A stretch of DNA of 64,000 bases from Candidatus Hydrogenedentota bacterium (GTDB taxonomy: Bacteria > Hydrogenedentota > Hydrogenedentia > Hydrogenedentales > CAITNO01), in assembly GCA_018056705.1 (NCBI GenBank), contig JAGPFE010000016.1, positions 370 to 64,369 of the forward strand, given 5' to 3'. The position numbers were made by a program, and so were the translations under genes. Positions 52,426 through 63,211 of the stretch are shown here, one piece after another. Below the pieces are notes generated by a model that saw only the letters and a program-made list of their open reading frames with translations, made no database searches and was not told the DNA's origin. Every line of letters begins with the position of its first letter. The first letter of the stretch is position 1.

Positions 52426-54744
52426 ATGGAATACGGGTGGTTTGGTCGACGGTTGAGGGTAGCATTGTTTCTGGCGCTGGCAGGCGTACTGCTGGCGCAG
52501 GGTGTCGCCGGCGCGGACCGGATTCCGCGTATCATGTTCGTCGGGGACAGCTGGTGCGGGTTTATGTTCGGTTTCCGGTCCATCAAGAAGGCTTTGGATG
52601 ATCCGGAATTCGCGTCTGATGGCTTATCCCGCTGGATCGAAACTGGCGCCAGCACGGCGATCATGGGCGCGAAGGCGTACGAGTACCTCTGGCCCCAGCG
52701 TCGGCAGGACGTGATCGACGCGCTGCAGGCTTTACCCACGGTGGACATCGTGGTGATGACTCTGGGTGGTAATGACTTTTCCGGTAGTTTCCCGGTGACC
52801 TTTCCGGGGGGGTACGTACGGGAGGTGGACTGGTACGACTGGTACCGGGAAAACCACGATGGAGATCCCAACAACGACTGGCCGGAATCCATCCTGCACA
52901 ATCAGTTCAAGAATGACATGCGCCAGATTATCCAGTACATTCTGGGCGTCAGGCCGGACATCAAGATTGCCCTGTGCGGTTATGATTTCACCTGCCGCAG
53001 GGTCAACGATCGGTGCAACGGCCTGTTGACCATCCCCGAGCAGACTGGCGGGCTGGTACGTTTCGAACAGGTCAAGCGGGAACTGGCCGAGGAATTTCCC
53101 GGGCGGGTGATCTACGTGCAGACGGCCGGCCTGATGCAGCACCATTTTGGCTATTTCACCAGCAACGAATGGGGCACGGGAACCAGCGGTCCGTGGCCCG
53201 CGCCGCGATCCCTGAGCGAGGTGGACGTGCCGCCGGGTGTGGCGCCGTTGCCGGGAGATCACCGGAACGGTTACACCCCGTGGCCGGGTGGCGATCCCAA
53301 CTGGCAGGACCCCCGGGCCGCGTATATCGATGATGATATTCACCTCGTCGAGGAAGGGTACGACGTGTTCGCCAAGCACATCGTGCGGACCATCGTGCGG
53401 GAGTGGCTTAATTACCCGCGGGCGCTGTACATCCTGCCCCAGGCGCCGTCGGGAAACACGCAGCAGTTCCGGGTGATCTTTTCGCATCCGGTTACGGGCG
53501 TGGACGTGACGGATTTCAGCGCGACGGCGGCCAAGGCGGTTTCCGTGCAATCGGTGACACAGGGATCGACGGCGGAAGAATGGGTGGTTACGGTCGCCCT
53601 CAACGGGGCTCTCGAGGCCCAGTTACAGGTGGAAGACGACGACACGATCGTCCGGAGTGACGACAACACGCTTCCCCTGGGTGGGCCCGGCGTGGGGAAC
53701 GGGGTGTATGCCTACAACGGCGAGTGGACCTTCACGGATCTGCTGCGGCCCGCCGATGACGATTTCGTGGGATCGCTCGAATACCTCAACACGGTGATGG
53801 AGCCCTACATCAAGACCTTTGTTCCCGACATCAGTTTCGCGCCGGATCGCTTCGACGTGAACGGCAATTTCGTCATGGACGGTGGCAGCATGCAGGAGCC
53901 CTACAAGATTCCGGGCAACGCGGTGCTTGAGTCCTACGAGTTCGGGCTGATCCGGTACTGCCTGGATCATCCGACCATCGACCTGTCCGGACGGGGTGGC
54001 TTAAAGGCGGCCGACGTGGTGGCGGCGTGGCAGAACAATATCGTGAAGGCGCAGGCCTGCCTGGGTGGTCTGGGTAGCATTGCCGATTCCTTCCTGCCCG
54101 GGCTGGACACGCTGGTAGCGGGATATTACACGCTTGGAGATGGGGATTCCACGTTCTTCGCGACCACCCTTCTGACCCTGCTGGCAGCCATTGATAACTT
54201 CCCCGTGGGGGTTACGGCTCCCGATCCGGCGGATTTCATCGGTTTTCCAGACCTGCTGTCCCGGACCGCCGACGCGGACAAGGATGGCTGGACGAACGAA
54301 CAAGAATACGCCTATTTCTACCCGGATGGTATCGAGGCGTACGCGGCTGCCGCGCTGGATCCGTCCCGACAGCCCAGGCGCGGCGTGGGGATGTACGAAG
54401 AGGGGGAACACGTGCGCCTGGCCTTGCTGGACCACCCCGCGTATGACAGCACGTTCCAGTGGTACAGGGACGGCGTGGCCCTTGCGGCGAAGAGCATGAA
54501 TGCAGGCGTCAACGAGCGATGCCTGGACCTGTTCCCCGTGACGGAAGCCGACGCGGGCAGTTACACCTGCGTGTACCAGGTGGGACAGGGTGTGGGCGTG
54601 AACCGTGTGCTGGTGAACCGCACCTACGGGCCGATTCAGATCCGCGTGGGGGCGACCATCCCCGCGGCGTCCGGTCTTGGCCTCCTGGCGCTGGGCGGCG
54701 TGCTGGCGGCCGTTGCCACGCGCCGGGCTCGCGGGTCCCGCTGA
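52426..54744 (+). CDS. secreted SGNH/GDSL hydrolase-domain protein with Ig-like domain and IPTL/PEP-CTERM-like C-terminal sorting signal
   Basis: Signal peptide, FVGDSW (GDSx block I) and GGND (block III), Ig-like DAGSYTC motif. C-terminus IPAASGLGLLALGGVLAAVATRRAR (motif, TM helix, Arg cluster). AAGGAG RBS. Confidence 0.6.
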   Translation: MEYGWFGRRLRVALFLALAGVLLAQGVAGADRIPRIMFVGDSWCGFMFGFRSIKKALDDPEFASDGLSRWIETGASTAIMGAKAYEYLWPQRRQDVIDALQALPTVDIVVMTLGGNDFSGSFPVTFPGGYVREVDWYDWYRENHDGDPNNDWPESILHNQFKNDMRQIIQYILGVRPDIKIALCGYDFTCRRVNDRCNGLLTIPEQTGGLVRFEQVKRELAEEFPGRVIYVQTAGLMQHHFGYFTSNEWGTGTSGPWPAPRSLSEVDVPPGVAPLPGDHRNGYTPWPGGDPNWQDPRAAYIDDDIHLVEEGYDVFAKHIVRTIVREWLNYPRALYILPQAPSGNTQQFRVIFSHPVTGVDVTDFSATAAKAVSVQSVTQGSTAEEWVVTVALNGALEAQLQVEDDDTIVRSDDNTLPLGGPGVGNGVYAYNGEWTFTDLLRPADDDFVGSLEYLNTVMEPYIKTFVPDISFAPDRFDVNGNFVMDGGSMQEPYKIPGNAVLESYEFGLIRYCLDHPTIDLSGRGGLKAADVVAAWQNNIVKAQACLGGLGSIADSFLPGLDTLVAGYYTLGDGDSTFFATTLLTLLAAIDNFPVGVTAPDPADFIGFPDLLSRTADADKDGWTNEQEYAYFYPDGIEAYAAAALDPSRQPRRGVGMYEEGEHVRLALLDHPAYDSTFQWYRDGVALAAKSMNAGVNERCLDLFPVTEADAGSYTCVYQVGQGVGVNRVLVNRTYGPIQIRVGATIPAASGLGLLALGGVLAAVATRRARGSR

Positions 54745-55666: not shown

Positions 55667-56119
55667 CTAGCGCGATCCGTCATCCTCCGGTAACGCGTAG
55701 TCCAGCAGTTCTTCCGGTTTGAAATACAAAGCAATTTCCCGCGCGGCCGTTTCAGGCGAATCGGACGCGTGGATGATGTTGCGCTGCTTGCTCAGGCTGA
55801 AATCCCCGCGAATCGTTCCCGGGTCCGCCTGGGCACTGTCGGTGGCTCCATTCATGCGGCGTACCACCGACACGGCGTCCCGTCCTTCCCACACCATCTG
55901 GACCGTGGGACCGGACGTTATGAACGCCACGAGGTCTTCGAAAAACGGTTTACCCTGGTGTTCGGCGTAATGGGTTTCCGCCATCTCTCTCGTCAGGCGT
56001 TGGAATTTCAGGCCGACCAGTTTCAGTCCCCGCCGTTCAAAACGGCGGATACATTCACCAACCAGGCCCCGCCCAACGCCGTCGGGCTTCACCATGACAA
56101 ATGTGCGTTCCACAGTCAT
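55667..56119 (-). CDS. ndk: nucleoside diphosphate kinase
   Basis: [15 protein letters not shown] start, NIIHASD active-site His region. 150 aa. Confidence 0.9.
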
Positions 56120-56230: not shown

Positions 56231-57979
56231 TCAGGGACAATCCCTTTGCACCTCGACTTCTCGGGCTATCAGGGCGGGAATGTGAATCGAGCAGGAATCG
56301 GAGTTAAGGGGATTTCCGGTACATTCCAGCACGCGAGGAAAAAGGGTGGTGTCCGCGTCGATGAACGTGACGCCCGTGGCTAATGGGCCGAGGTCCGCGA
56401 CCTGGTTGTCGCTGATGTCAAGATGCCGAAGTTTATTCAGGCCGGACAGGGGAGAGACGTCTACAACCTGGTTCCCCGCCAGGTACAGGGCCTGGAGGTT
56501 GCGGGCCGCTTCCAATCCTTGCAATGACGTGATGCCCATGTTAGGAATGTCCAGGGATGCGATGTTCAGCATGTTCTGTCGCGTGACAGGCGTGGCAGGG
56601 TCGGTAATGTTGAACAAACCCCGGATGAAACTCGACAGTGTCGTGTCGGTAATGGTCACGGGATCATCGCATCCTCCTGTCGCCAGCGTGAAGAACACGG
56701 TGGAGCCGGGAAGCATTGACGTGCCCGACGCGGGGGTTTGTGTCGCCACGATATCCGGGGGGAAGATCGGACTGCAGGTGTAAGACATTACGGGAACCAG
56801 TCCGACAGACTGGAGGGCGCTTTCCGCGTCATTTCGCGTCATGCCGACGAGATGCGGAACGGGTACGGGGCATGGTCCGGTGGAAATTTCGAGGTCCACC
56901 ACGGCTCCTGGCATGACAACCGACCCGCCGATCGGGGACTGGTTGGCAACGCTGTCTGCGGCATGTACATTACTGCAGGCCGTCGTGACGGTTCCGACGG
57001 TCAAGCCTACATTCGCGAGGAGATCCCGGGCGGTTTGCTCTGAAAGATGGACCAGGTTTGGCACGACCACGGGACACGGACCCGCGCTCACGACCAGGTG
57101 AACCACCGATCCTTCCAGCACGTTGCTTCCGGCAATTGGATCCTGGGTGATGACGGCATCCACGGTAGTGTTATTGTCACACCGCGTGGAAATACTCGCG
57201 CCAAGGTTTAAACCCTGTAGCGTGAAAGTGGCAGTTCCCATGTCCACGTTTGACAGGTCGGGCACGGATACACAGGATCCCGCCGCAAAGTCAAAGTCGA
57301 CGGCGGTGCCCAGGGTAACCTGTGTTGCCGCCGCGGGGGACTGATGAATCACCGTGTCCAGGGGATCGGTGTTACTGCAGGCGGCGTTCGCGGTCCCAAC
57401 GGTAAGGCCAGCGGCGGTGATGGCGCTTTCGGCCTCGCCCCGGCTCATGCCCGAAAGGTTCGGCACCGCCGTGATCACGGGACAAGGCCCGGAGGACAAG
57501 GTAAAGTCCACGATGGAACCCGTGGTAACAGAGATGCCTGTACCGGGGTTTTGAGAAGCCACGGTGTCCGGTGCCGCGGTGTCACTGCAGGCGGTACTTA
57601 CCGATCCAACGACGAGGCCAGCGGCGGTGATGGCGCTTTCGGCCTCGCCCCGGCTCATGCCCGAAAGGTTCGGCACCGCCGTGATTACGGGACAAGGCCC
57701 GGAGGATATTTCCAGGTCGACCGCGGTCCCTTTTCGGACCCGGATTCCCCCCGCGGGCTGTTGCGTTATGACGCTTCCCGCGGGCACCGCGTCGTGACAG
57801 CGAAGGCTGATCTGGCCCACCTGTAAGCCCGCCCCGGTAATGGCGGTTTCGGCCTCGACCCGCGCAAGCCCCATGACATCGGGGGTTTTCGGCTTACAGC
57901 CCGTGGCGATCAGTACCAGCCCGGAAAGAACGACCCATCTACCCCGCCGCGTGGTCCAGAAACTCCCCATGAATTTCAT
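56231..57979 (-). CDS. lipoprotein with ~6 tandem PASTA domains and a C-terminal leucine-rich-repeat region
   Basis: Lipobox LIATGC. Repeated ~70-aa PASTA modules (VPNLSGMSRGEAESAITAAGLxVG...Q.P..G......V.L..S.GPCP). LRR segment LQALYLAGNQVVDVSPLSGLNKLRHLDISDNQV. Confidence 0.65.
   Translation of the reverse strand: MKFMGSFWTTRRGRWVVLSGLVLIATGCKPKTPDVMGLARVEAETAITGAGLQVGQISLRCHDAVPAGSVITQQPAGGIRVRKGTAVDLEISSGPCPVITAVPNLSGMSRGEAESAITAAGLVVGSVSTACSDTAAPDTVASQNPGTGISVTTGSIVDFTLSSGPCPVITAVPNLSGMSRGEAESAITAAGLTVGTANAACSNTDPLDTVIHQSPAAATQVTLGTAVDFDFAAGSCVSVPDLSNVDMGTATFTLQGLNLGASISTRCDNNTTVDAVITQDPIAGSNVLEGSVVHLVVSAGPCPVVVPNLVHLSEQTARDLLANVGLTVGTVTTACSNVHAADSVANQSPIGGSVVMPGAVVDLEISTGPCPVPVPHLVGMTRNDAESALQSVGLVPVMSYTCSPIFPPDIVATQTPASGTSMLPGSTVFFTLATGGCDDPVTITDTTLSSFIRGLFNITDPATPVTRQNMLNIASLDIPNMGITSLQGLEAARNLQALYLAGNQVVDVSPLSGLNKLRHLDISDNQVADLGPLATGVTFIDADTTLFPRVLECTGNPLNSDSCSIHIPALIAREVEVQRDCP
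57406..57715. repeat. 210-bp-period near-identical tandem duplication inside the PASTA-repeat gene
   Basis: A ~100-bp block (GGCCAGCGGCGGTGATGGCGCTTTCGGCCTCGCCCCGGCTCATGCCCGAAAGGTTCGGCACCGCCGTGAT[C/T]ACGGGACAAGGCCCGGAGGA) occurs at 57406-57505 and 57616-57715 with one mismatch. Confidence 0.65.
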
Positions 57980-58154
57980 GTTTACCTCCCCGGCCTCGGA
58001 ATTTCGGTCCTCGCCCTTGTTCCGTTGGCCTCTGCTCGCGCGCCCATGCGTTCAACCCCATTATACCACGTGTTCTTGACGAGGCATCCGAGGAGAGTGA
58101 ACCGGGCCGGATTATCACCACAACTACAAAATGTGATAAACTACGCCGTACCGG

Positions 58155-58231
58155 GGGCGGTTAGCTCAGTTGGTCAGAGCGCCTGCCTTACACGCAGGAG
58201 GTCGCAGGTTCGAGCCCTGCACCGCCCACCA
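58155..58231 (+). tRNA. tRNA-Val (anticodon TAC)
   Basis: Acceptor GGGCGGT/ACCGCCC, anticodon loop CTTACAC, T-loop TTCGAGC, CCA encoded. Confidence 0.9.
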
Positions 58232-58262
58232 TTTAACCAATGCTCTATTCGTAAAACCTTAC

Positions 58263-58306
58263 CGGTGTGCGCGTCCATCACCATGGATCGCACACCGTTC
58301 TTTATT
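58263..58306 (+). terminator. Rho-independent terminator after tRNA-Val
   Basis: 9-bp stem CGGTGTGCG/CGCACACCG, followed by TTCTTTATT. Confidence 0.5.
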
Positions 58307-58672
58307 GATGTGGGCTTCTTATGATGTGTCTTACCTGGTACCGTGCCGTATTCAACAAGTTTCTGATCATATATTCTGTTTTTTCAAATTCCGGTCCGTC
58401 TCTGTTCTCGCGCCCTTTTATTCGCTGTTAACCACAATAGGCAGGGGTGGATGGAGCCAGGTAAATGCCCGGAATGATTTTTTCCAAAGGATCTGGACGC
58501 ACCGCACAAGGAGGACGGCAGGCACGACGGATGTCCTGTTGGTCCTTGCGCGGCAGGGCCTGAGCGGATAGAATGACTTTCGCGCACAGCCCGCCCGGGT
58601 TGCAAAAAGCGCGGCGCCGTGGTGGAGGTAATCGAACCAGGCGCGACGGCACGTGTAAAAGGAATCTGGACC

Positions 58673-59914
58673 ATGGAAGACGACGCAGTCGTTTCACGTC
58701 GGACGATGCTTGCGGCGGGCGCGGCAGGATTGGCGGGGGTGTCTGCCTTCGGCGCGGAGGTTCCGCCCGCCGTCGCGCCGGTGTTCTCCGTGCGGGAGTT
58801 TGGCGCGAGGGGGGACGGCGTCGCCGATGATACGGAATCGGTTCAGGTAGCGGTGGATGCCGCCGTGAAGGCCAAGGGGGGCCGGGTGCATTTCCCCTCC
58901 GGCTCCTACCGGCTCACCAAGACCATCATCATTGCTTCGTCGGACCGCCTGGACCTCACGGGAGACGGTTTCAGTTCTGTGCTGCTGCACGCGGGGCCGG
59001 AGCACTGTCTGGCGTGGCAGGAAGGAAGTGCCTGCCGCGAGTCGTCCGTGCGCGACCTGTGCATCGCCGCCGCCGGGCAGAGCAAGGACCCCGGGACCGC
59101 TGCCATCGCGTGTCTCGGTGGCGTGGAGCGGTCTCTCTTCTCCCACCTGCTGCTCACCGGCGGGGATATCCGCATGGGCAGCGGTATCCTCACGCGCGGG
59201 GTGGCTGACACGACGACCCTGATCCAGTGCGTCATGTGGGGCGTCACCGGGACGGGCCTCGAAGTGGCCCGGGGTAGCGAGGTACGCATCCTCGGAGGCC
59301 GGATCATCGGGTTTACGCGGGACGAGCACCACAGCGTGGGCGTGGCCATCACGGGGAACAACGGCGGGGTCCACATCCTCACCACGGACATCATCGGCCT
59401 GGGCACGGCGGTGAAAATCGGCGGCGGGCCGGGCGCGCCGTCCAACCGGGAGATATTCATCACCCACGCGACAATAGACAGCTGCACCCACGGCATCCAC
59501 CAGACGGACAATGCCTACACCAGCATCGCGGGATGCTGGGCGGCCTCCTGCGACGAGGAACAGATCCTCGTGGAGGGAAGGGGCGCAATCCTCGCCGTGG
59601 CCGGGGGGACCATCTTCAACGGCGGCGCCTACGGCAAACCGGGTGGGCACCACGGCATGGTCGTACGCGGCGGCTCCTTCACCCTATCCGGGCTCACCAT
59701 CCGCCACAACAAGGGGACGGGTCTCCTCGTTGAGGGGAACGTGCGCGACTACGCGGTCACCGGCTGCCGCATCGCCGACAACGGCCGCGGCGTGGTCCTG
59801 GGTGGGAATAACTTTGTCTTCGCCAACAACACCCTCGCCCGTAACGGCGTCCAGATCGAGGACAACGGCGGTTCCAACAAAAACATATCGGGAAACATCC
59901 TGACCGACAGGTAA
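58673..59914 (+). CDS. Tat-exported right-handed beta-helix (pectate-lyase-fold) protein
   Basis: SRRTMLAAGAAGLAG Tat motif. FGARGDGVADDTESVQ is the N-terminal motif typical of Pectate_lyase_3/beta-helix glycosidases. Repeated G-rich beta-helix coils. Confidence 0.6.
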   Translation: MEDDAVVSRRTMLAAGAAGLAGVSAFGAEVPPAVAPVFSVREFGARGDGVADDTESVQVAVDAAVKAKGGRVHFPSGSYRLTKTIIIASSDRLDLTGDGFSSVLLHAGPEHCLAWQEGSACRESSVRDLCIAAAGQSKDPGTAAIACLGGVERSLFSHLLLTGGDIRMGSGILTRGVADTTTLIQCVMWGVTGTGLEVARGSEVRILGGRIIGFTRDEHHSVGVAITGNNGGVHILTTDIIGLGTAVKIGGGPGAPSNREIFITHATIDSCTHGIHQTDNAYTSIAGCWAASCDEEQILVEGRGAILAVAGGTIFNGGAYGKPGGHHGMVVRGGSFTLSGLTIRHNKGTGLLVEGNVRDYAVTGCRIADNGRGVVLGGNNFVFANNTLARNGVQIEDNGGSNKNISGNILTDR

Positions 59915-60119
59915 GACGTTTCCTTTCGTACGGGCCAGAAGGCGGGTGACGCCGCGCCCTTTTTCTTCGAGGCATGAGCGTATCCGCATTGCTCCGCCCA
60001 TGTTGCGGCGACGGTTCGGAAAGCGCGTCGTGGGGAAGGAACGTTGTCTGAACAGAAACCGATAGGGGTATTTACTTGATTCCTCCCCCGAAGAAGTAGT
60101 GGTTATGTCATGGGTAAGG

Positions 60120-60412
60120 ATTAACCGCGCTTCTGGATAAATTTCCGGTGTCGACTCATTGACGAGATCCCATGCGTCTACGTATGACCGGGTGAAGGCC
60201 CCCTCTTCAGCAATGTACTCAAGAATGCGTTTCCGCAATTGCGGCAAGTCTTCGCGCAAAGACTCTCCCCAGGGCTGCAGGTATTCGCGTCCGCGCCAGA
60301 CCATGCAAGGTCCCAGACGTGCCCCCTTCTCTTTGAGGCATTTCAGCGCCGCAAGGGTCTTTTCGCGCGTGAAACCCGGACCATAAGCGCCATGCCAGGC
60401 GATCCACTGCAA
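60120..60412 (-). pseudogene. GH10 (endo-xylanase family) gene remnant
   Basis: ORF fragment with MVWRGREYLQPW and KRILEYIAEEGAFTRSYVDAWDLVNE (the GH10 WDVVNE acid/base region). It degenerates immediately afterwards. The surrounding 59.9-60.8 kb is lower-GC with no intact ORF. Confidence 0.4.
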
Positions 60413-60790
60413 GTCTTTTTCAAGAACAGCACAATGGACAATTTGCGCACGTTTTCCTCGTAGCGATGTGGTCCGGTTCCTTTCCGGTAATGCGGTCCGC
60501 CGTCATCCAGGCGCCCCACAGAAAAGCGTGTCGCGTCATCTCGACATGTACAGACACATTGGACAAGGGCTTTCCACCGGCATCTTCGACACGCGTCACG
60601 AGATCGGCTTTGCGAAGCTGCTCAATCCGTTGTTCCGCCTTCCGTCAGGTATCCTCTAATCCAACCGCCTCCGCTGTCGCGCTCCCTGGAGCGACATAAG
60701 AACGATCAAGCCCAAGCCTTTTCGGAAAAGACCGGATGGGCCATCTGTCTTATTTCCCGTACAAATATCCGCGTGCGGCAGCCCGTTCTC

Positions 60791-62137
60791 TCAGGGTACG
60801 ATCTTCAACTCACCGTCTAATTCCAGGACCACGGTGGATGAAATGGGGTCGGGAGCGTTCTTTCCCACCTTTACCAGCACGCCCTCTCGCCCGGACTTTA
60901 CCTTCAAGCTCTTGTTTGGGTCGGCCAGCAGGTATGCCTTCGCCACGGGCGTCCGCAGCCCCGGCACCACGAGTTTTCCGTTAGCCGGCCAGTCAAACAC
61001 GTGCAGGTAAAGCGTTGTGCCGTTCGGGGTGACTTTCTTCGTGCATCGTCCCCACGGCAGTTTTTCAAAGGGGCTCGCCGTTGTGCCGTAAATGGCGTCG
61101 CCGTTCACTTTCATCCATTGGCCCATCTCTCGCAGTCGCTGGACGGACGCCTCGGGGATCAGGCCTTCCGAGGTCGGCCCCACGTTGAGCAGGTAGTTTC
61201 CGCCCTTGGACGCGATGTCCACCAGATTTCGGATGAGCGTTTTCGTGCTTTTCCATCTGTTGTCGAAGGATTTGTACCCCCAGGTATCGTTCATGGTCAT
61301 GCACACTTCAAAGTCTTGTCCGGGCGTGCCCGTGGCGGGGATATGCTGCTCGGGCGTGCCAAAGTCGCCCTCGTAGCCCCCGCCGAGCCGGTTGTTGGTA
61401 ATGATGCCCGGTTGCAGTCTGGTGAGCGGGTAAAGCAGGTCCGCCCGCTCCTTGGTCATGTTGACCGGGGTGTCCCACCACAGCACCGCTATCGGTCCGT
61501 AGTTCGTCAATAATTCGCGCACTTGCGGCACGGCGACATTCTTGATGTACTCATCCATGTCACCGTCCTGCTTGGGGTCCCAGTGCCCGTCCCTTGCGGC
61601 TGCCCCGCCTGGATTGACCCAGTCCTGCGCCTGGGAATAGTAGAATCCGAGTTTCATGCCGTGCCTCTGGCATGCCTCCGCCAGCGGTTTCAGCAGGTCT
61701 TTCCCGTACGGGGTGCTGTCAACGACATTCCAGTCGCTGGCCTTGGTTTCGAACAGGGCGAAGCCGTCGTGGTGTTTCGCGGTGATGACGATGTATTTCA
61801 TGCCGGCCTCTTTGGCCAGCCGCACCCACTCGTCCGGGTCATACTTGACGGGGTTGAACTCCCTGGCAAGCGCCCTGTACTCGTCCACGGGAATCCTGAG
61901 CGACAGCATAATCCACTCCCCAATTTCCGGCGTTCGCTTTCCCTTGTACTCGCCCGCCGGAACGCTGTACACGCCCCAGTGGATGAACATGCCAAAGCGC
62001 GCCTCCCGCCACCACTGCATCCGCGCGTCCCGCTGCGCGGGCGTTTCTTCGTCCGCCGAGGCGGTGACTGGGACTGACATCAGGACCGTCAGGGCAACCA
62101 GGCTGATCGAAAGCAACTTAGTGATGTGCATGGCCAT
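60791..62137 (-). CDS. alpha-L-fucosidase, GH29
   Basis: Signal peptide, WWREARFGMFIHWGVYSVPA GH29 signature, C-terminal beta-sandwich. GGAGA RBS before ATG 62137. Confidence 0.85.
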   Translation of the reverse strand: MAMHITKLLSISLVALTVLMSVPVTASADEETPAQRDARMQWWREARFGMFIHWGVYSVPAGEYKGKRTPEIGEWIMLSLRIPVDEYRALAREFNPVKYDPDEWVRLAKEAGMKYIVITAKHHDGFALFETKASDWNVVDSTPYGKDLLKPLAEACQRHGMKLGFYYSQAQDWVNPGGAAARDGHWDPKQDGDMDEYIKNVAVPQVRELLTNYGPIAVLWWDTPVNMTKERADLLYPLTRLQPGIITNNRLGGGYEGDFGTPEQHIPATGTPGQDFEVCMTMNDTWGYKSFDNRWKSTKTLIRNLVDIASKGGNYLLNVGPTSEGLIPEASVQRLREMGQWMKVNGDAIYGTTASPFEKLPWGRCTKKVTPNGTTLYLHVFDWPANGKLVVPGLRTPVAKAYLLADPNKSLKVKSGREGVLVKVGKNAPDPISSTVVLELDGELKIVP

Positions 62138-62542
62138 TCTCCGTGTTGAATGTTTTTGTGAGGGGTAGCCTGTCCCCAGGCACTCCACCAGGTGGGCTCC
62201 CCGGTCCTCCGAATCCTTGCGATTGATGTTCCAGAGCAGCGCCTACTGATCCTTAATACAGTGTAGATAAATACTCGGTGGTCTGGGCAATGTTCTCAGG
62301 GTAACTGTCTCATAACCGTCACGCGCGAACATCTCGCGCGCGCCATCCACGATTCGTTCAGGGCCTCACGCTTCCGCTCGCGGCGCGCCTTGGACCTGTT
62401 CTCCCTTTTATGTTTGAAACACCCTTTACAGTATGGCACAGGTTATAGCAGTTTTCAATCCATTTGCCAATTACGACTATTTCGGATGTGATTCTGGTCG
62501 ACTCGACGTGCATATGGCACCATACCCGTCGCGCCGTGGTTG

Positions 62543-62610
62543 TCGATCCCCAGTGCCGCCGGCTTGAACGGCGCCCGCCCGGTCAATCCCCCGTGCCGCC
62601 GGCTTGAACG
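62543..62610 (+). repeat. two-copy 28-bp direct repeat TC(G/A)ATCCCC(A/C)GTGCCGCCGGCTTGAACG
   Basis: Copies at 62543-62570 and 62583-62610, spaced 40 bp, in the ~630-bp non-coding region upstream of the tRNA operon. Confidence 0.4.
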
Positions 62611-62689
62611 TGACGGCCGTGGATGCTTCGGGGGAGGATCCCACTTGCCAGGAGATGCCCGGTACGGGTATAAATGCAAGTGAGCAGTG

Positions 62690-62722
62690 TTGACATCAAC
62701 GGTCACTTTCTGGTATGTTATA
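62690..62722 (+). promoter_or_regulatory. sigma70 promoter TTGACA-18-TATGTT for the tRNA-tuf operon
   Basis: Consensus -35 TTGACA at 62690-62695, -10 TATGTTATA from 62714. A CCGCGC/GCGCGG hairpin plus T7 run (62732-62760) lies between the promoter and the first tRNA. Confidence 0.4.
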
Positions 62723-62766: not shown

Positions 62767-62842
62767 GCTGGCGTAGCTCAGTTGGCAGAGCAGCTGACTT
62801 GTAATCAGCAGGTCGGGGGTTCGATTCCCTTCGCCAGCTCCA
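62767..62842 (+). tRNA. tRNA-Thr (anticodon TGT)
   Basis: Acceptor GCTGGCG/CGCCAGC, anticodon loop CTTGTAA, T-loop TTCGATT, CCA encoded. Confidence 0.9.
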
Positions 62843-62894
62843 GCGGACGAACCAGTTGAAACATGAAGTCAATCCGCCAGGGCGGTTGGCGCGT

Positions 62895-62980
62895 GGTGGG
62901 ATGCCCGAGTGGCTAAAGGGGACGGGCTGTAAACCCGTTGGCTAGCGCCTACGTTGGTTCGAATCCAACTCCCACCACCA
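62895..62980 (+). tRNA. tRNA-Tyr (anticodon GTA)
   Basis: Acceptor GGTGGGA/TCCCACC, anticodon GTA, long variable arm (class II), CCA encoded. Confidence 0.9.
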
Positions 62981-63030
62981 TGCACATAGAACATAGCGCG
63001 TGGCGAGCGTGCGACGCGATTGCCCGCGAC

Positions 63031-63106
63031 GCGGGAGTAGCTCAGTTGGTAGAGCGTCAGCCTTCCAAGCTGAGGGTCGCGAGTTCGAGCCTCGTCTCCC
63101 GCTCCA
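63031..63106 (+). tRNA. tRNA-Gly (anticodon TCC)
   Basis: Acceptor GCGGGAG/CTCCCGC, anticodon loop CTTCCAA, CCA encoded. Confidence 0.9.
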
Positions 63107-63135
63107 TAACCGGATACCTCCCGTAAAGGGTTTGG

Positions 63136-63211
<76 letters not shown>

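What the first reader, a model, noticed from the sequence alone, without database searches (positions are those of the whole stretch)
56231..57979. Orphan lipoprotein with ~6 PASTA domains fused to a leucine-rich-repeat module, with one very recent in-gene duplication
PASTA domains normally occur on Ser/Thr kinases (PknB/StkP) or class B penicillin-binding proteins, where they sense muropeptides. Here ~6 PASTA modules sit on a lipoprotein (lipobox LIATGC) with no kinase or transpeptidase domain, and the protein ends in an internalin-like LRR region. Two adjacent modules are nearly identical at the DNA level (57406-57505 vs 57616-57715, 1 mismatch over ~100 bp). That indicates an ongoing repeat expansion and a potential phase- or length-variable surface protein.
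Basis: partly seen in the sequence, partly recalled or inferred. Interest (0 to 1): 0.6.

Follow-up and report, generated by a model that had tools for sequence, protein, structure and literature searches.

The report
Kinase-less six-PASTA lipoprotein with LRR tip
This is a real, complete gene from an uncultured Hydrogenedentota bacterium for a membrane-anchored envelope protein: six cell-wall-type PASTA beads ending in a small internalin-like binding domain. It belongs to a large uncharacterised family and is mildly unusual rather than a fresh duplication or a phase-variable gene.

Summary
ORF 56231-57979 (-) encodes 582 aa: signal peptide with a lipobox (Cys28), six contiguous Pfam PASTA domains (E 6.5e-70), and a 145-aa capped LRR cassette whose confident model best matches InlB/InlA. 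No kinase or PBP domain has been split off. The gene has a GGAGG ribosome site, faces a tRNA-Val, and sits in the same tRNA-Val | gene | ndk | DUF1844 | GDSL-Ig synteny on independent contigs, one from a Hydrogenedentota MAG.

- **Not an orphan.** More than 1,400 kinase-less multi-PASTA proteins were found; the best 120 carry 5-15 modules each.
- **Not a recent duplication.** The identical stretch is 92 nt (1 mismatch) inside two old modules that are about 59% identical elsewhere. Module 3 has its own orthologue in relatives only 55-61% identical. This points to gene conversion.
- **Length does vary.** A strain 98% identical in DNA carries seven modules.
- **The six-module allele is stable.** The same protein is on 11 contigs; the seven gene copies compared are identical to one another. 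The repeat unit is in frame, so there is no phase variation.

New detail: each module carries a co-occurring cysteine pair, probably a disulfide. The protein evolves 3-5 times faster than its neighbours. The function is inferred: an envelope rod presenting an LRR adaptor.

The parts
56231..57979 (-). Complete CDS, 582 aa: lipoprotein signal, six PASTA modules, one LRR cassette
   Evidence: ORF list; Pfam. The identical protein is on 11 independent contigs.
57985..57989 (-). Shine-Dalgarno GGAGG, 5 nt upstream of the ATG
   Evidence: Read directly from the sequence.
57896..57979 (-). Signal peptide with lipobox (residues 1-28, ...LIATG-C28)
   Evidence: The sequence fits the PROSITE PS51257-type pattern (my reading). 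An [AG]-C-K motif is conserved in the orthologues P0002, P0004 and L005. No dedicated lipoprotein predictor was available.
57692..57895 (-). PASTA module 1 (residues 29-96; Cys61, Cys96)
   Evidence: Pfam PASTA; AF2 pLDDT above 90; module split.
57482..57691 (-). PASTA module 2 (residues 97-166; Cys131, Cys166). This is the module duplicated in the seven-module allele of L003.
57272..57481 (-). PASTA module 3 (residues 167-236; Cys201, Cys236)
   Evidence: Its C-terminal part is orthologous to module 3 of L004.
57074..57271 (-). PASTA module 4 (residues 237-302; Cys267, Cys302)
56870..57073 (-). PASTA module 5 (residues 303-370; Cys335, Cys370)
56669..56869 (-). PASTA module 6 (residues 371-437; Cys402, Cys437)
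56234..56668 (-). C-terminal LRR cassette (residues 438-582): N-cap helix, four LRR strands of 22-residue type, C-cap helix
   Evidence: LRR_4. AF2 pLDDT 92, pTM 0.86. Foldseek best matches are InlB, InlF and InlA, TMq 0.70-0.75. phmmer against InlA: query residues 442-535 align to InlA residues 12-105. 55,653 homologues.
57615..57706 (-). Copy A of the 92-nt near-identical tract (end of module 1 and start of module 2)
57405..57496 (-). Copy B of the 92-nt near-identical tract (end of module 2 and start of module 3); 1 mismatch to copy A
55667..56119 (-). ndk, the conserved downstream neighbour on the same strand, 111 nt after the stop codon. The spacer holds a weak hairpin followed by T8.
   Evidence: Pfam NDK, E 8.6e-57; synteny; spacer read.
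58155..58231 (+). tRNA-Val(TAC), divergent upstream neighbour. It leaves no room for a split-off kinase or PBP.
   Evidence: ARAGORN; conserved in L001, L004 and L005.

Best explanation
The gene encodes a lipid-anchored, extracytoplasmic structural and adaptor protein of the cell envelope of a Hydrogenedentota bacterium.

**Proposed mechanism.**
- After export, Cys28 is lipidated, which tethers the protein to a membrane.
- Six PASTA modules follow with almost no linker between them. Each is probably locked by an intramodule disulfide between the mid-module Cys and the Cys in the GPC linker. Together they would form a stiff beads-on-a-string rod. At roughly 3-3.5 nm per module, a figure I recall from the extended PknB and PrkC ectodomains and did not measure here, the rod would be about 20 nm long.
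- The rod either lies along or through peptidoglycan, or simply acts as a spacer.
- A small capped internalin-type LRR cassette at the far tip binds a protein partner.
- The protein has no enzymatic or signalling output domain of its own.

**Repeat dynamics.** Recombination between neighbouring modules homogenises short tracts (the 92-nt tract). Occasionally it adds or removes a whole 70-aa module (six against seven), which changes the reach of the tip by one bead.

**Shown:** the architecture, the folds, gene completeness, the orthologue group and synteny, the 6/7 polymorphism, the both-or-neither cysteine pattern, and fast but purifying evolution.

**Inferred:** lipidation, the disulfides, rod geometry, compartment, peptidoglycan contact, and the existence of an LRR partner.
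For: **Architecture and folds**
- Pfam gives six PASTA domains plus LRR_4.
- In the full-length model, residues 30-440 have pLDDT above 90. The best solved matches are the PASTA ectodomains of S. aureus PrkC/Stk1 (3py9, 3m9g) and M. tuberculosis PknB (5e12, 2kui).
- The C-terminal model has pLDDT 92 and pTM 0.86, and best matches InlB, InlF and InlA.

**Completeness**
- The gene has a GGAGG ribosome site and a signal peptide, and a divergent tRNA-Val lies upstream.
- The same synteny is found on independent contigs from other samples.

**Anchor at one end, LRR at the other**
- P0074 and P0085 have the inverse order: signal peptide, LRR, six PASTA modules, then a C-terminal hydrophobic anchor.

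**The PASTA array as a reusable module**
- The 120 best relatives have 5-15 contiguous modules.
- Of the 103 that start with Met, 24 have only a short N-terminal extension plus a further C-terminal region of at least 90 aa. The precomputed Pfam hits for such proteins include EF-hand, FGE-sulfatase, LamG, dockerin, PKD and FG-GAP.
- 61 of the 103 are signal peptide plus array only.

**Cysteine pair**
- Of 988 modules, 164 have both Cys, 804 have neither, and only 20 have one (Fisher p = 7e-161; the modules are not phylogenetically independent).
- In the window protein, the 12 non-lipid Cys of the array can only pair mid-to-end within a module, because Cys28 is the lipidation site.

**Module dynamics**
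- L003 is 98% identical in DNA over 14 kb but has seven modules.
- The 5' ends of modules 2 and 3 are also homogenised in L004, L001 and L005.

**Evolutionary rate**
- dN is 0.33-0.42, against 0.06-0.15 for ndk, DUF1844 and GDSL-Ig on the same contigs. dN/dS is about 0.2.

**Precedent for a non-sensing role of PASTA repeats**
- StkP PASTA repeats are reported to control septal wall thickness independently of muropeptide binding (Zucchini et al. 2017, as cited in PMC5786024).
Against: - No experiment or genomic association ties the protein to a partner or to peptidoglycan.
- The conserved neighbours (ndk, DUF1844, a GDSL-Ig protein) give no functional clue, and co-transcription with ndk is uncertain.
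- The full-length model has pTM 0.44, so the arrangement between modules (rod or compact) is not established.
- I could not read model coordinates, so the Cys-Cys distances were not measured.
- Most relatives are PASTA arrays with no head domain (61 of 103). This fits an intrinsic ligand-binding role for the array better than a pure spacer role.
- The compartment (periplasm or cell surface) is unknown. The envelope type of Hydrogenedentota is assumed from its placement in Pseudomonadati, not shown.
Confidence: 0.45

Rival explanations
1. It is a surface-exposed adhesin whose length varies. The PASTA array is only a stalk that projects the LRR tip beyond the outer membrane to bind particles, other cells or polymers. 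Changes in module number and fast sequence change help it escape phages, predators or competitors. This would resemble the Rib/alpha-C or SasG-type repeat proteins of Gram-positive bacteria.
For: - The protein evolves 3-5 times faster than its flanking genes.
- Near-identical strains differ by one module, six against seven.
- The LRR is of the internalin type, and internalins are adhesins.
- Relatives carry typical extracellular domains such as dockerin, PKD, LamG, FG-GAP and EF-hand.
- The whole LRR cassette recurs in giant multi-LRR proteins.
Against: - dN/dS is about 0.2, with no sign of diversifying selection at whole-gene or region level.
- The six-module protein is on 11 contigs, and the seven gene copies compared are identical to one another, so the gene is not hypervariable.
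- Only one length variant was seen.
- Only 92 nt of the repeats are identical, unlike the perfectly identical tandem repeats of Rib/alpha-C proteins.
- No signal for surface export of a lipoprotein could be tested.
Confidence: 0.25
2. It is a muropeptide or peptidoglycan sensor or tether, and the PASTA array is the functional part. In this reading the array binds peptidoglycan multivalently, and the LRR passes the signal on, or docks a hydrolase or synthase. This would be analogous to StkP PASTA4 with LytB, or to the LpoA/LpoB lipoproteins that reach across the periplasm to PBPs.
For: - PASTA domains of PrkC, PknB and StkP bind muropeptides in vitro (PMC5786024; PMC6448482).
- 61 of 103 complete relatives are PASTA arrays with nothing else attached, so the array must have a function of its own.
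- PASTA is used as a peptidoglycan-associating module in other non-kinase architectures (PMC7159879).
Against: - PASTA has no conserved ligand-binding motif that could be checked.
- The module sequences diverge quickly: orthologues are 53-60% identical across the array.
- No peptidoglycan enzyme or kinase lies in the conserved neighbourhood.
- Several PASTA domains are known not to bind muropeptides (from my own knowledge of the PknB and PBP2x literature).
Confidence: 0.2
3. It is an assembly or annotation artefact: the ectodomain of a PASTA kinase or PBP cut off from its catalytic domain, or a repeat collapsed by short-read assembly.
For: Repeats are a known source of assembly error. The 92-nt identical tract lies 210 nt from its copy.
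Against: - The gene has its own ribosome-binding site, start codon and lipoprotein signal peptide.
- The upstream neighbour is a tRNA on the other strand.
- The identical gene is found in independent assemblies from JGI, ENA and NCBI MAGs.
- Orthologues at 55-61% identity have the same six modules and the same flanking genes.
- The identical tract is shorter than a typical read, and the remainder of the two modules is only about 59% identical.
Confidence: 0.02

Closest known systems
Extracellular PASTA arrays of PknB/PrkC/StkP-type Ser/Thr kinases
   Same: - The domain family is the same (PF03793).
- The fold is the same; the best solved matches are 3py9, 3m9g, 5e12 and 2kui.
- Both have tandem modules with very short linkers, anchored to a membrane at the N-terminal side.
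- In StkP the repeats are reported to act partly as a spacer and the distal end engages another protein (Zucchini et al. 2017, via PMC5786024; the detail about the distal end is from my own knowledge).
   Different: - There is no kinase domain and no transmembrane helix; the anchor is a lipobox.
- It has six or seven modules instead of three to five.
- Every module has a conserved Cys pair. The canonical kinase PASTA domains lack it as far as I recall; here I only showed that most multi-PASTA relatives lack it.
- The distal domain is an LRR rather than a PASTA or Ig-like domain.
- The host is an FCB-group candidate phylum, not Firmicutes or Actinobacteria.
Uncharacterised 'PASTA domain-containing protein' / COG2815-type 'beta-lactam-binding protein with PASTA domain' entries from metagenomes
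   Same: - They are kinase-less, PBP-less secreted or lipid-anchored arrays of 5-15 PASTA modules.
- This gene belongs to that set. P0003 is annotated as coming from Candidatus Hydrogenedentes.
   Different: - Only the orthologue group (P0001, P0002, P0004) and P0074/P0085 combine the array with an LRR.
- Only about 25 of the 120 best hits have the Cys-pair module type.
Listeria internalins (InlA, InlB, InlF, InlH)
   Same: - Both have 22-residue LRRs with a helical N-cap.
- Foldseek gives TMq 0.70-0.75 at about 2.5 Å rmsd.
- phmmer aligns query residues 442-535 to InlA residues 12-105.
   Different: - There are only about four LRR strands.
- There is no Ig-like inter-repeat domain and no LPXTG or GW anchor.
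- NCBIfam internalin scores are about 40 bits against cutoffs of 1050-1600.
- The closer relatives are environmental proteins in which this capped cassette of about 138 aa is repeated in tandem.
Repeat-number-variable surface proteins (Rib / alpha-C, SasG/Aap type)
   Same: The repeats are in-frame domain-sized units whose number differs between close strains (six against seven).
   Different: - The repeats here are 60-75% identical apart from a 92-nt tract.
- Only one variant was seen, and the main allele is invariant in the seven gene copies compared.
- Surface exposure is unproven.

Membership tests
PASTA domain family (Pfam PF03793) | A match to the family profile above the gathering score | tested here: met
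   231.5 bits against a cutoff of 23.2, six stretches.
PASTA domain family (Pfam PF03793) | A module of about 70 aa with one alpha helix packed on a three-stranded sheet | tested here: met
   The AF2 model shows six helix-plus-strand modules with pLDDT above 90. Foldseek matches single and multiple PASTA structures, for example 3ouv TMt 0.82 and 5nod TMt 0.78.
PASTA Ser/Thr kinase (PknB/Stk1, NCBIfam NF033483) | An N-terminal Hanks-type kinase domain and a transmembrane helix before the PASTA array | tested here: not met
   Only profile positions 362-560 (the PASTA part) match, at 221 bits against a cutoff of 450. Residues 1-28 are a signal peptide, and the upstream DNA is a tRNA-Val on the other strand.
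Class B penicillin-binding protein (PBP2x/SpoVD type) | A transpeptidase domain N-terminal to the PASTA domains | tested here: not met
   Pfam finds no transpeptidase. SpoVD scores 24.5 bits against a cutoff of 688, on the PASTA part only.
Bacterial lipoprotein (SPase II substrates) | A positively charged n-region, a hydrophobic h-region, and a lipobox [LVI..][ASTG..][GAS]-C | tested here: met
   The N-terminus reads MKFMGSFWTTRRGRWVVLSGLVLIATG-C28. The motif is conserved as FVA-C and GFG-C in the orthologues. This is a pattern match only: no LipoP or SignalP run was possible.
Bacterial lipoprotein (SPase II substrates) | Actual acylation of the Cys and cleavage by signal peptidase II | not testable with these tools
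   This needs mass spectrometry or globomycin sensitivity.
Class 1 internalins (NCBIfam NF033189 and related) | A cap, then six or more 22-residue LRRs, then an Ig-like inter-repeat domain and a wall anchor, scoring above the family cutoff | tested here: not met
   Scores are about 40 bits against cutoffs of 1050-1600. The model has only four LRR strands and ends in a C-cap helix. The cap and LRR fold itself is internalin-like.
Leucine-rich repeat superfamily (Pfam LRR_4, PF12799) | A profile match above the gathering score, and a solenoid fold | tested here: met
   38.7 bits against 27; AF2 pLDDT 92; 87 PDB LRR matches at E <= 1e-3.
Phase-variable (contingency) genes | A simple-sequence tract, or a repeat whose change shifts the reading frame or promoter spacing | tested here: not met
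   The only tandem repeat found is a 9-nt unit at 2.1 copies. The 210-nt unit is in frame, and the seven-module allele is an exact 70-aa insertion.
Repeat-number-variable surface proteins | Repeat number differs among close strains | tested here: met
   L003 is 98% identical in DNA over 14 kb and has seven modules against six. This is one variant only; the seven other gene copies compared are invariant.
Repeat-number-variable surface proteins | Near-identical tandem repeats at the DNA level across whole units | tested here: not met
   Modules 2 and 3 are 74% identical, and only 92 nt are identical. In L003 the two copies of module 2 are 95% identical.

The most novel reading that the evidence does not exclude
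The disulfide-locked PASTA array may be a molecular ruler in a diderm candidate phylum. In this reading a lipid-anchored rod of fixed length, about 20 nm, spans or gauges the periplasm or cell wall and places an LRR docking site at a set distance from the membrane. Gain or loss of a module (six or seven) would retune that distance. More broadly, kinase-less PASTA arrays of 5-15 modules, with or without head domains, would form an unrecognised class of envelope scaffolds outside the Gram-positive phyla where PASTA biology has been studied.
Probability: 0.15. Interest if true: 0.6.

Novelty: new variant of a known kind. Interest (0 to 1): 0.35.

Why it matters
PASTA domains have been studied almost only as the sensor ends of Gram-positive kinases and PBPs. 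This gene shows that a candidate phylum of the FCB group, together with many other metagenomic lineages, uses long PASTA arrays with no catalytic partner, sometimes tipped with unrelated binding domains. If the arrays prove to be rigid, disulfide-stapled spacers or multivalent wall binders, the working view of PASTA would widen from ligand sensor to structural envelope module, and the arrays would offer a natural set of length variants to test the ruler idea proposed for StkP. As it stands, the gene is an uncharacterised member of a large family and has no functional data.

Tried and rejected
- **Recent whole-module duplication: rejected.** The module-by-module nucleotide matrix shows that modules 2 and 3 each have their own orthologue.
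- **Polarity of the 6/7 difference: unresolved.** The two copies of module 2 in L003 differ by 10 of 210 nt, and neither is clearly closer to the window's module (6 and 10 differences). All outgroups have six modules, so six is probably ancestral. A gain in the L003 lineage and a loss in the window lineage remain equally possible.
- **Looking up P0001 on its 457-kb contig: failed**. The metagenome scan recovered the same allele on L003 instead.
- **Word-indexed search with the C-terminal 145 aa: uninformative.** It returned a single hit. The exhaustive HMM search then gave 55,653 hits.
- **AlphaFold database search:** not available on the machine.
- **Cys-Cys distances:** model coordinates are not exposed, so I used the both-or-neither statistics instead.
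- **Promoter and terminator scan:** no more sites than in shuffled sequence. By eye there is a TATAAT near 58061-58066 and a weak hairpin plus T8 after the stop codon. I draw no conclusion from these.
- **Literature searches:** I searched for PASTA with lipoprotein and LRR, with Hydrogenedentes, and with Planctomycetes. None returned a paper on this architecture.
- **Functional hints from neighbours (ndk, DUF1844, GDSL-Ig):** none found.
Full report
**1. What is in the sequence**

The window holds one long ORF at exactly the stated coordinates: 56231-57979 on the minus strand, 582 aa.
- A GGAGG ribosome-binding site lies 5 nt upstream of the ATG.
- The N-terminus is MKFMGSFWTTRRGRWVVLSGLVLIATG-C28. 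That is a charged n-region, a hydrophobic core and a lipobox.
- Pfam finds six PASTA domains (E 6.5e-70, 231 bits against a cutoff of 23.2) and LRR_4 at residues 494-534 (38.7 bits against 27). It finds nothing else.
- NCBIfam matches only the PASTA part of the PknB model (221 bits against a cutoff of 450) and the LRR part of the internalin models (about 40 bits against 1050-1600).

So the domain reading by the first-stage reader is correct.

**2. The gene is complete**

- The upstream neighbour is tRNA-Val(TAC) on the opposite strand, at 58155-58231.
- The downstream neighbours are ndk (55667-56119), a DUF1844 protein and a 772-aa GDSL/Ig protein.
- The same order recurs on independent contigs: tRNA-Val, this gene, ndk, DUF1844, GDSL-Ig.
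- One of those contigs, L001, comes from a MAG labelled Candidatus Hydrogenedentota.
- The exact 582-aa protein is on 11 contigs from JGI, ENA and NCBI MAG assemblies.
- In the seven gene copies I compared, the DNA is identical among them. It differs from the window at one synonymous position, gene position 1179.

**3. The DNA repeat**

- The tract with 1 mismatch is 92 nt: 57405-57496 against 57615-57706.
- It covers the junction SSGPC|PVITAVPNLSGMSRGEAESAITAAG. That is the end of one module plus the first 77 nt of the next.
- The rest of modules 2 and 3 is about 59% identical, and the modules are 74% identical overall (the 59% is my count from the difference strings).
- The chance of 91 of 92 matches at that background is about 5e-20 (my calculation). 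The tract is real.

It does not mark a recent duplication, for three reasons.
- The C-terminal two thirds of module 3 (…ACSNTDPLDTVIHQSPAAATQV…) has a clear orthologue in module 3 of the 61%-identical L004 protein (…ACSDSAPTGTVIHQSPAAASQV…).
- Module-against-module identities are higher for orthologous pairs (68-70%) than for cross pairs (63-64%).
- Every orthologue outside the 98%-identical strain pair has six modules.

The 5' ends of modules 2 and 3 are also homogenised in L004, L001 and L005, with lineage-specific residues such as NQADAE in L001. That is the pattern expected from recurrent gene conversion between neighbouring modules.

**4. Length variation**

L003 (= P0001) is 98% identical to the window over about 14 kb. 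Its only structural difference is an exact 210-nt, 70-aa insertion, giving seven modules.
- The extra module is a copy of module 2. The two copies in L003 are 95% identical, and the window's module 2 is 97% and 95% identical to them.
- The direction of change cannot be settled.
- However, the six-module allele is invariant in the seven gene copies compared. The unit is in frame, and the gene has no simple-sequence tract.

This is slow length polymorphism. It is not phase variation or active expansion.

**5. Folds**

- With a 53-sequence alignment, AF2 models residues 30-440 at pLDDT above 90 as six helix-plus-sheet modules.
- The best solved matches are the PASTA ectodomains of S. aureus PrkC/Stk1 and M. 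tuberculosis PknB.
- The overall pTM is 0.44, so the geometry between modules is not defined.
- In that run the C-terminal region was poorly modelled. With a dedicated 19-sequence alignment it reached pLDDT 92 and pTM 0.86. The model shows an N-cap helix, four LRR strands and a C-cap helix.
- Its best solved matches are InlB, InlF and InlA, with TMq 0.70-0.75 at about 2.5 Å rmsd.
- phmmer aligns residues 442-535 to the cap and first repeats of InlA.
- An exhaustive profile search found 55,653 proteins with this LRR type. In the top hits, the whole capped cassette of about 138 aa is repeated many times in giant proteins.

'Internalin-like' is fair at the level of fold. The protein fails the internalin family criteria: no inter-repeat domain, no wall anchor, and scores far below the cutoffs.

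**6. The wider family**

The protein is not an orphan. The first search returned 1,432 significant kinase-less PASTA proteins among the 8,000 candidates scored. In the best 120:
- The arrays have 5-15 contiguous modules.
- Of the 103 that begin with Met, 61 are signal peptide plus array only.
- 24 of the 103 carry an extra C-terminal region of at least 90 aa. Six more have long extensions at both ends.
- Precomputed Pfam hits across the list include EF-hand, FGE-sulfatase, LamG, dockerin, PKD and FG-GAP.
- 46 of the 103 have a lipobox-like motif, and others have ordinary signal peptides.
- Source names include Hydrogenedentes, Pseudomonadota MAGs and the cyanobacterium Kaarinaea lacus.
- PASTA with LRR occurs only in the orthologue group and in P0074/P0085. 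Those two have the reverse order: LRR, six PASTA modules, then a C-terminal hydrophobic anchor. In both orders the LRR sits at the end far from the anchor.

**7.

Every module has two cysteines, one after the second strand (…ACS…) and one in the linker (…GPC).
- Across 988 modules of the 120 relatives, 164 have both, 804 have neither, and 20 have one (Fisher p = 7e-161; the modules are not phylogenetically independent).
- Cys28 is the lipidation site, so the 12 remaining array cysteines can only pair mid-to-end within each module.
- I infer one disulfide per module, which would staple the linker to the domain body.
- I could not measure the distances because model coordinates are not exposed.
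- Cys564 and Cys581 in the LRR C-cap show the same both-or-neither pattern.

**8. Evolutionary rate**

| Protein | dN against L004, L001 or L007 |
|---|---|
| This protein | 0.33-0.42 |
| ndk | about 0.08 |
| DUF1844 | 0.11-0.15 |
| GDSL-Ig | 0.06-0.075 |

- dN/dS is about 0.2 against L004. Synonymous sites are saturated against L001.
- The PASTA and LRR parts diverge alike.

The protein evolves fast but under purifying selection. That is typical of exposed envelope proteins.

**9. Interpretation**

The best-supported reading is a lipid-anchored envelope scaffold. A probably disulfide-stapled PASTA rod either contacts peptidoglycan or acts as a spacer, and it carries an LRR adaptor at its tip. 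It has no catalytic output. I put this at 0.45.

The rivals are:
- a surface adhesin with length variation (0.25);
- a peptidoglycan or muropeptide binder in which the array itself is the functional part (0.20), favoured by the many head-less arrays;
- an artefact (0.02).

StkP gives a precedent for PASTA repeats acting by number rather than by ligand binding (Zucchini et al. 2017, as cited in PMC5786024). PASTA has also been listed as a wall-associating module outside kinases and PBPs (PMC7159879). No paper on this architecture was found.

**10. Verdict**

This is a genuine gene with an unusual but not unique architecture. It is a new variant of a known kind, and its function is unknown. The 'recent duplication' headline is replaced by gene conversion plus a six-against-seven module polymorphism. 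Interest is modest (0.35).

Noticed in passing
window 58235-62706: This stretch lies between tRNA-Val and the tRNA-Thr/Tyr/Gly/Thr cluster. It holds a beta-helix (pectate-lyase-like) protein at 58619-59914 (+) and a probable GH29 alpha-L-fucosidase at 60791-62188 (-). L004 and L001 have tRNA-Val directly beside the tRNA cluster, and L012 has a metallophosphoesterase there instead. It looks like a variable insertion site next to tRNA-Val that carries glycan-degrading genes.
   Followed up: partly
window 52426-54744 (+): A 772-aa protein with weak GDSL-lipase and Ig-domain matches. It has a C-terminal hydrophobic stretch followed by RRARGSR, like a PEP-CTERM-type sorting tail but without a clear PEP motif. 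It is 89-92% conserved and syntenic in all orthologous loci.
   Followed up: no
window 62767-63211: A tRNA cluster, Thr(TGT)-Tyr-Gly(TCC)-Thr(GGT). This is the arrangement that commonly precedes tuf in bacteria. The region is 90-92% identical in DNA to L004 and L001.
   Followed up: no
window 56234-56300 (residues 564 and 581) and relatives: Two cysteines in the LRR C-cap (DSC…RDCP) are both present in the window and L003 proteins and in unrelated LRR cassettes (P0135 and one other). Both are absent from the L004 and L001 orthologues. This suggests an optional disulfide in the cap.
   Followed up: partly
relatives P0003, P0006, P0008, P0013: These proteins consist of 13-15 PASTA modules and nothing else. 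At least one of them, P0006, has a lipobox. Such head-less arrays make up the majority of the family, and no function is known for them.
   Followed up: partly
L003 8050-8052 region (DUF1844 gene): The tblastn match of the DUF1844 protein in L003 is broken into two pieces, residues 1-156 and 157-176. This suggests a frameshift or an assembly error in that contig.
   Followed up: no
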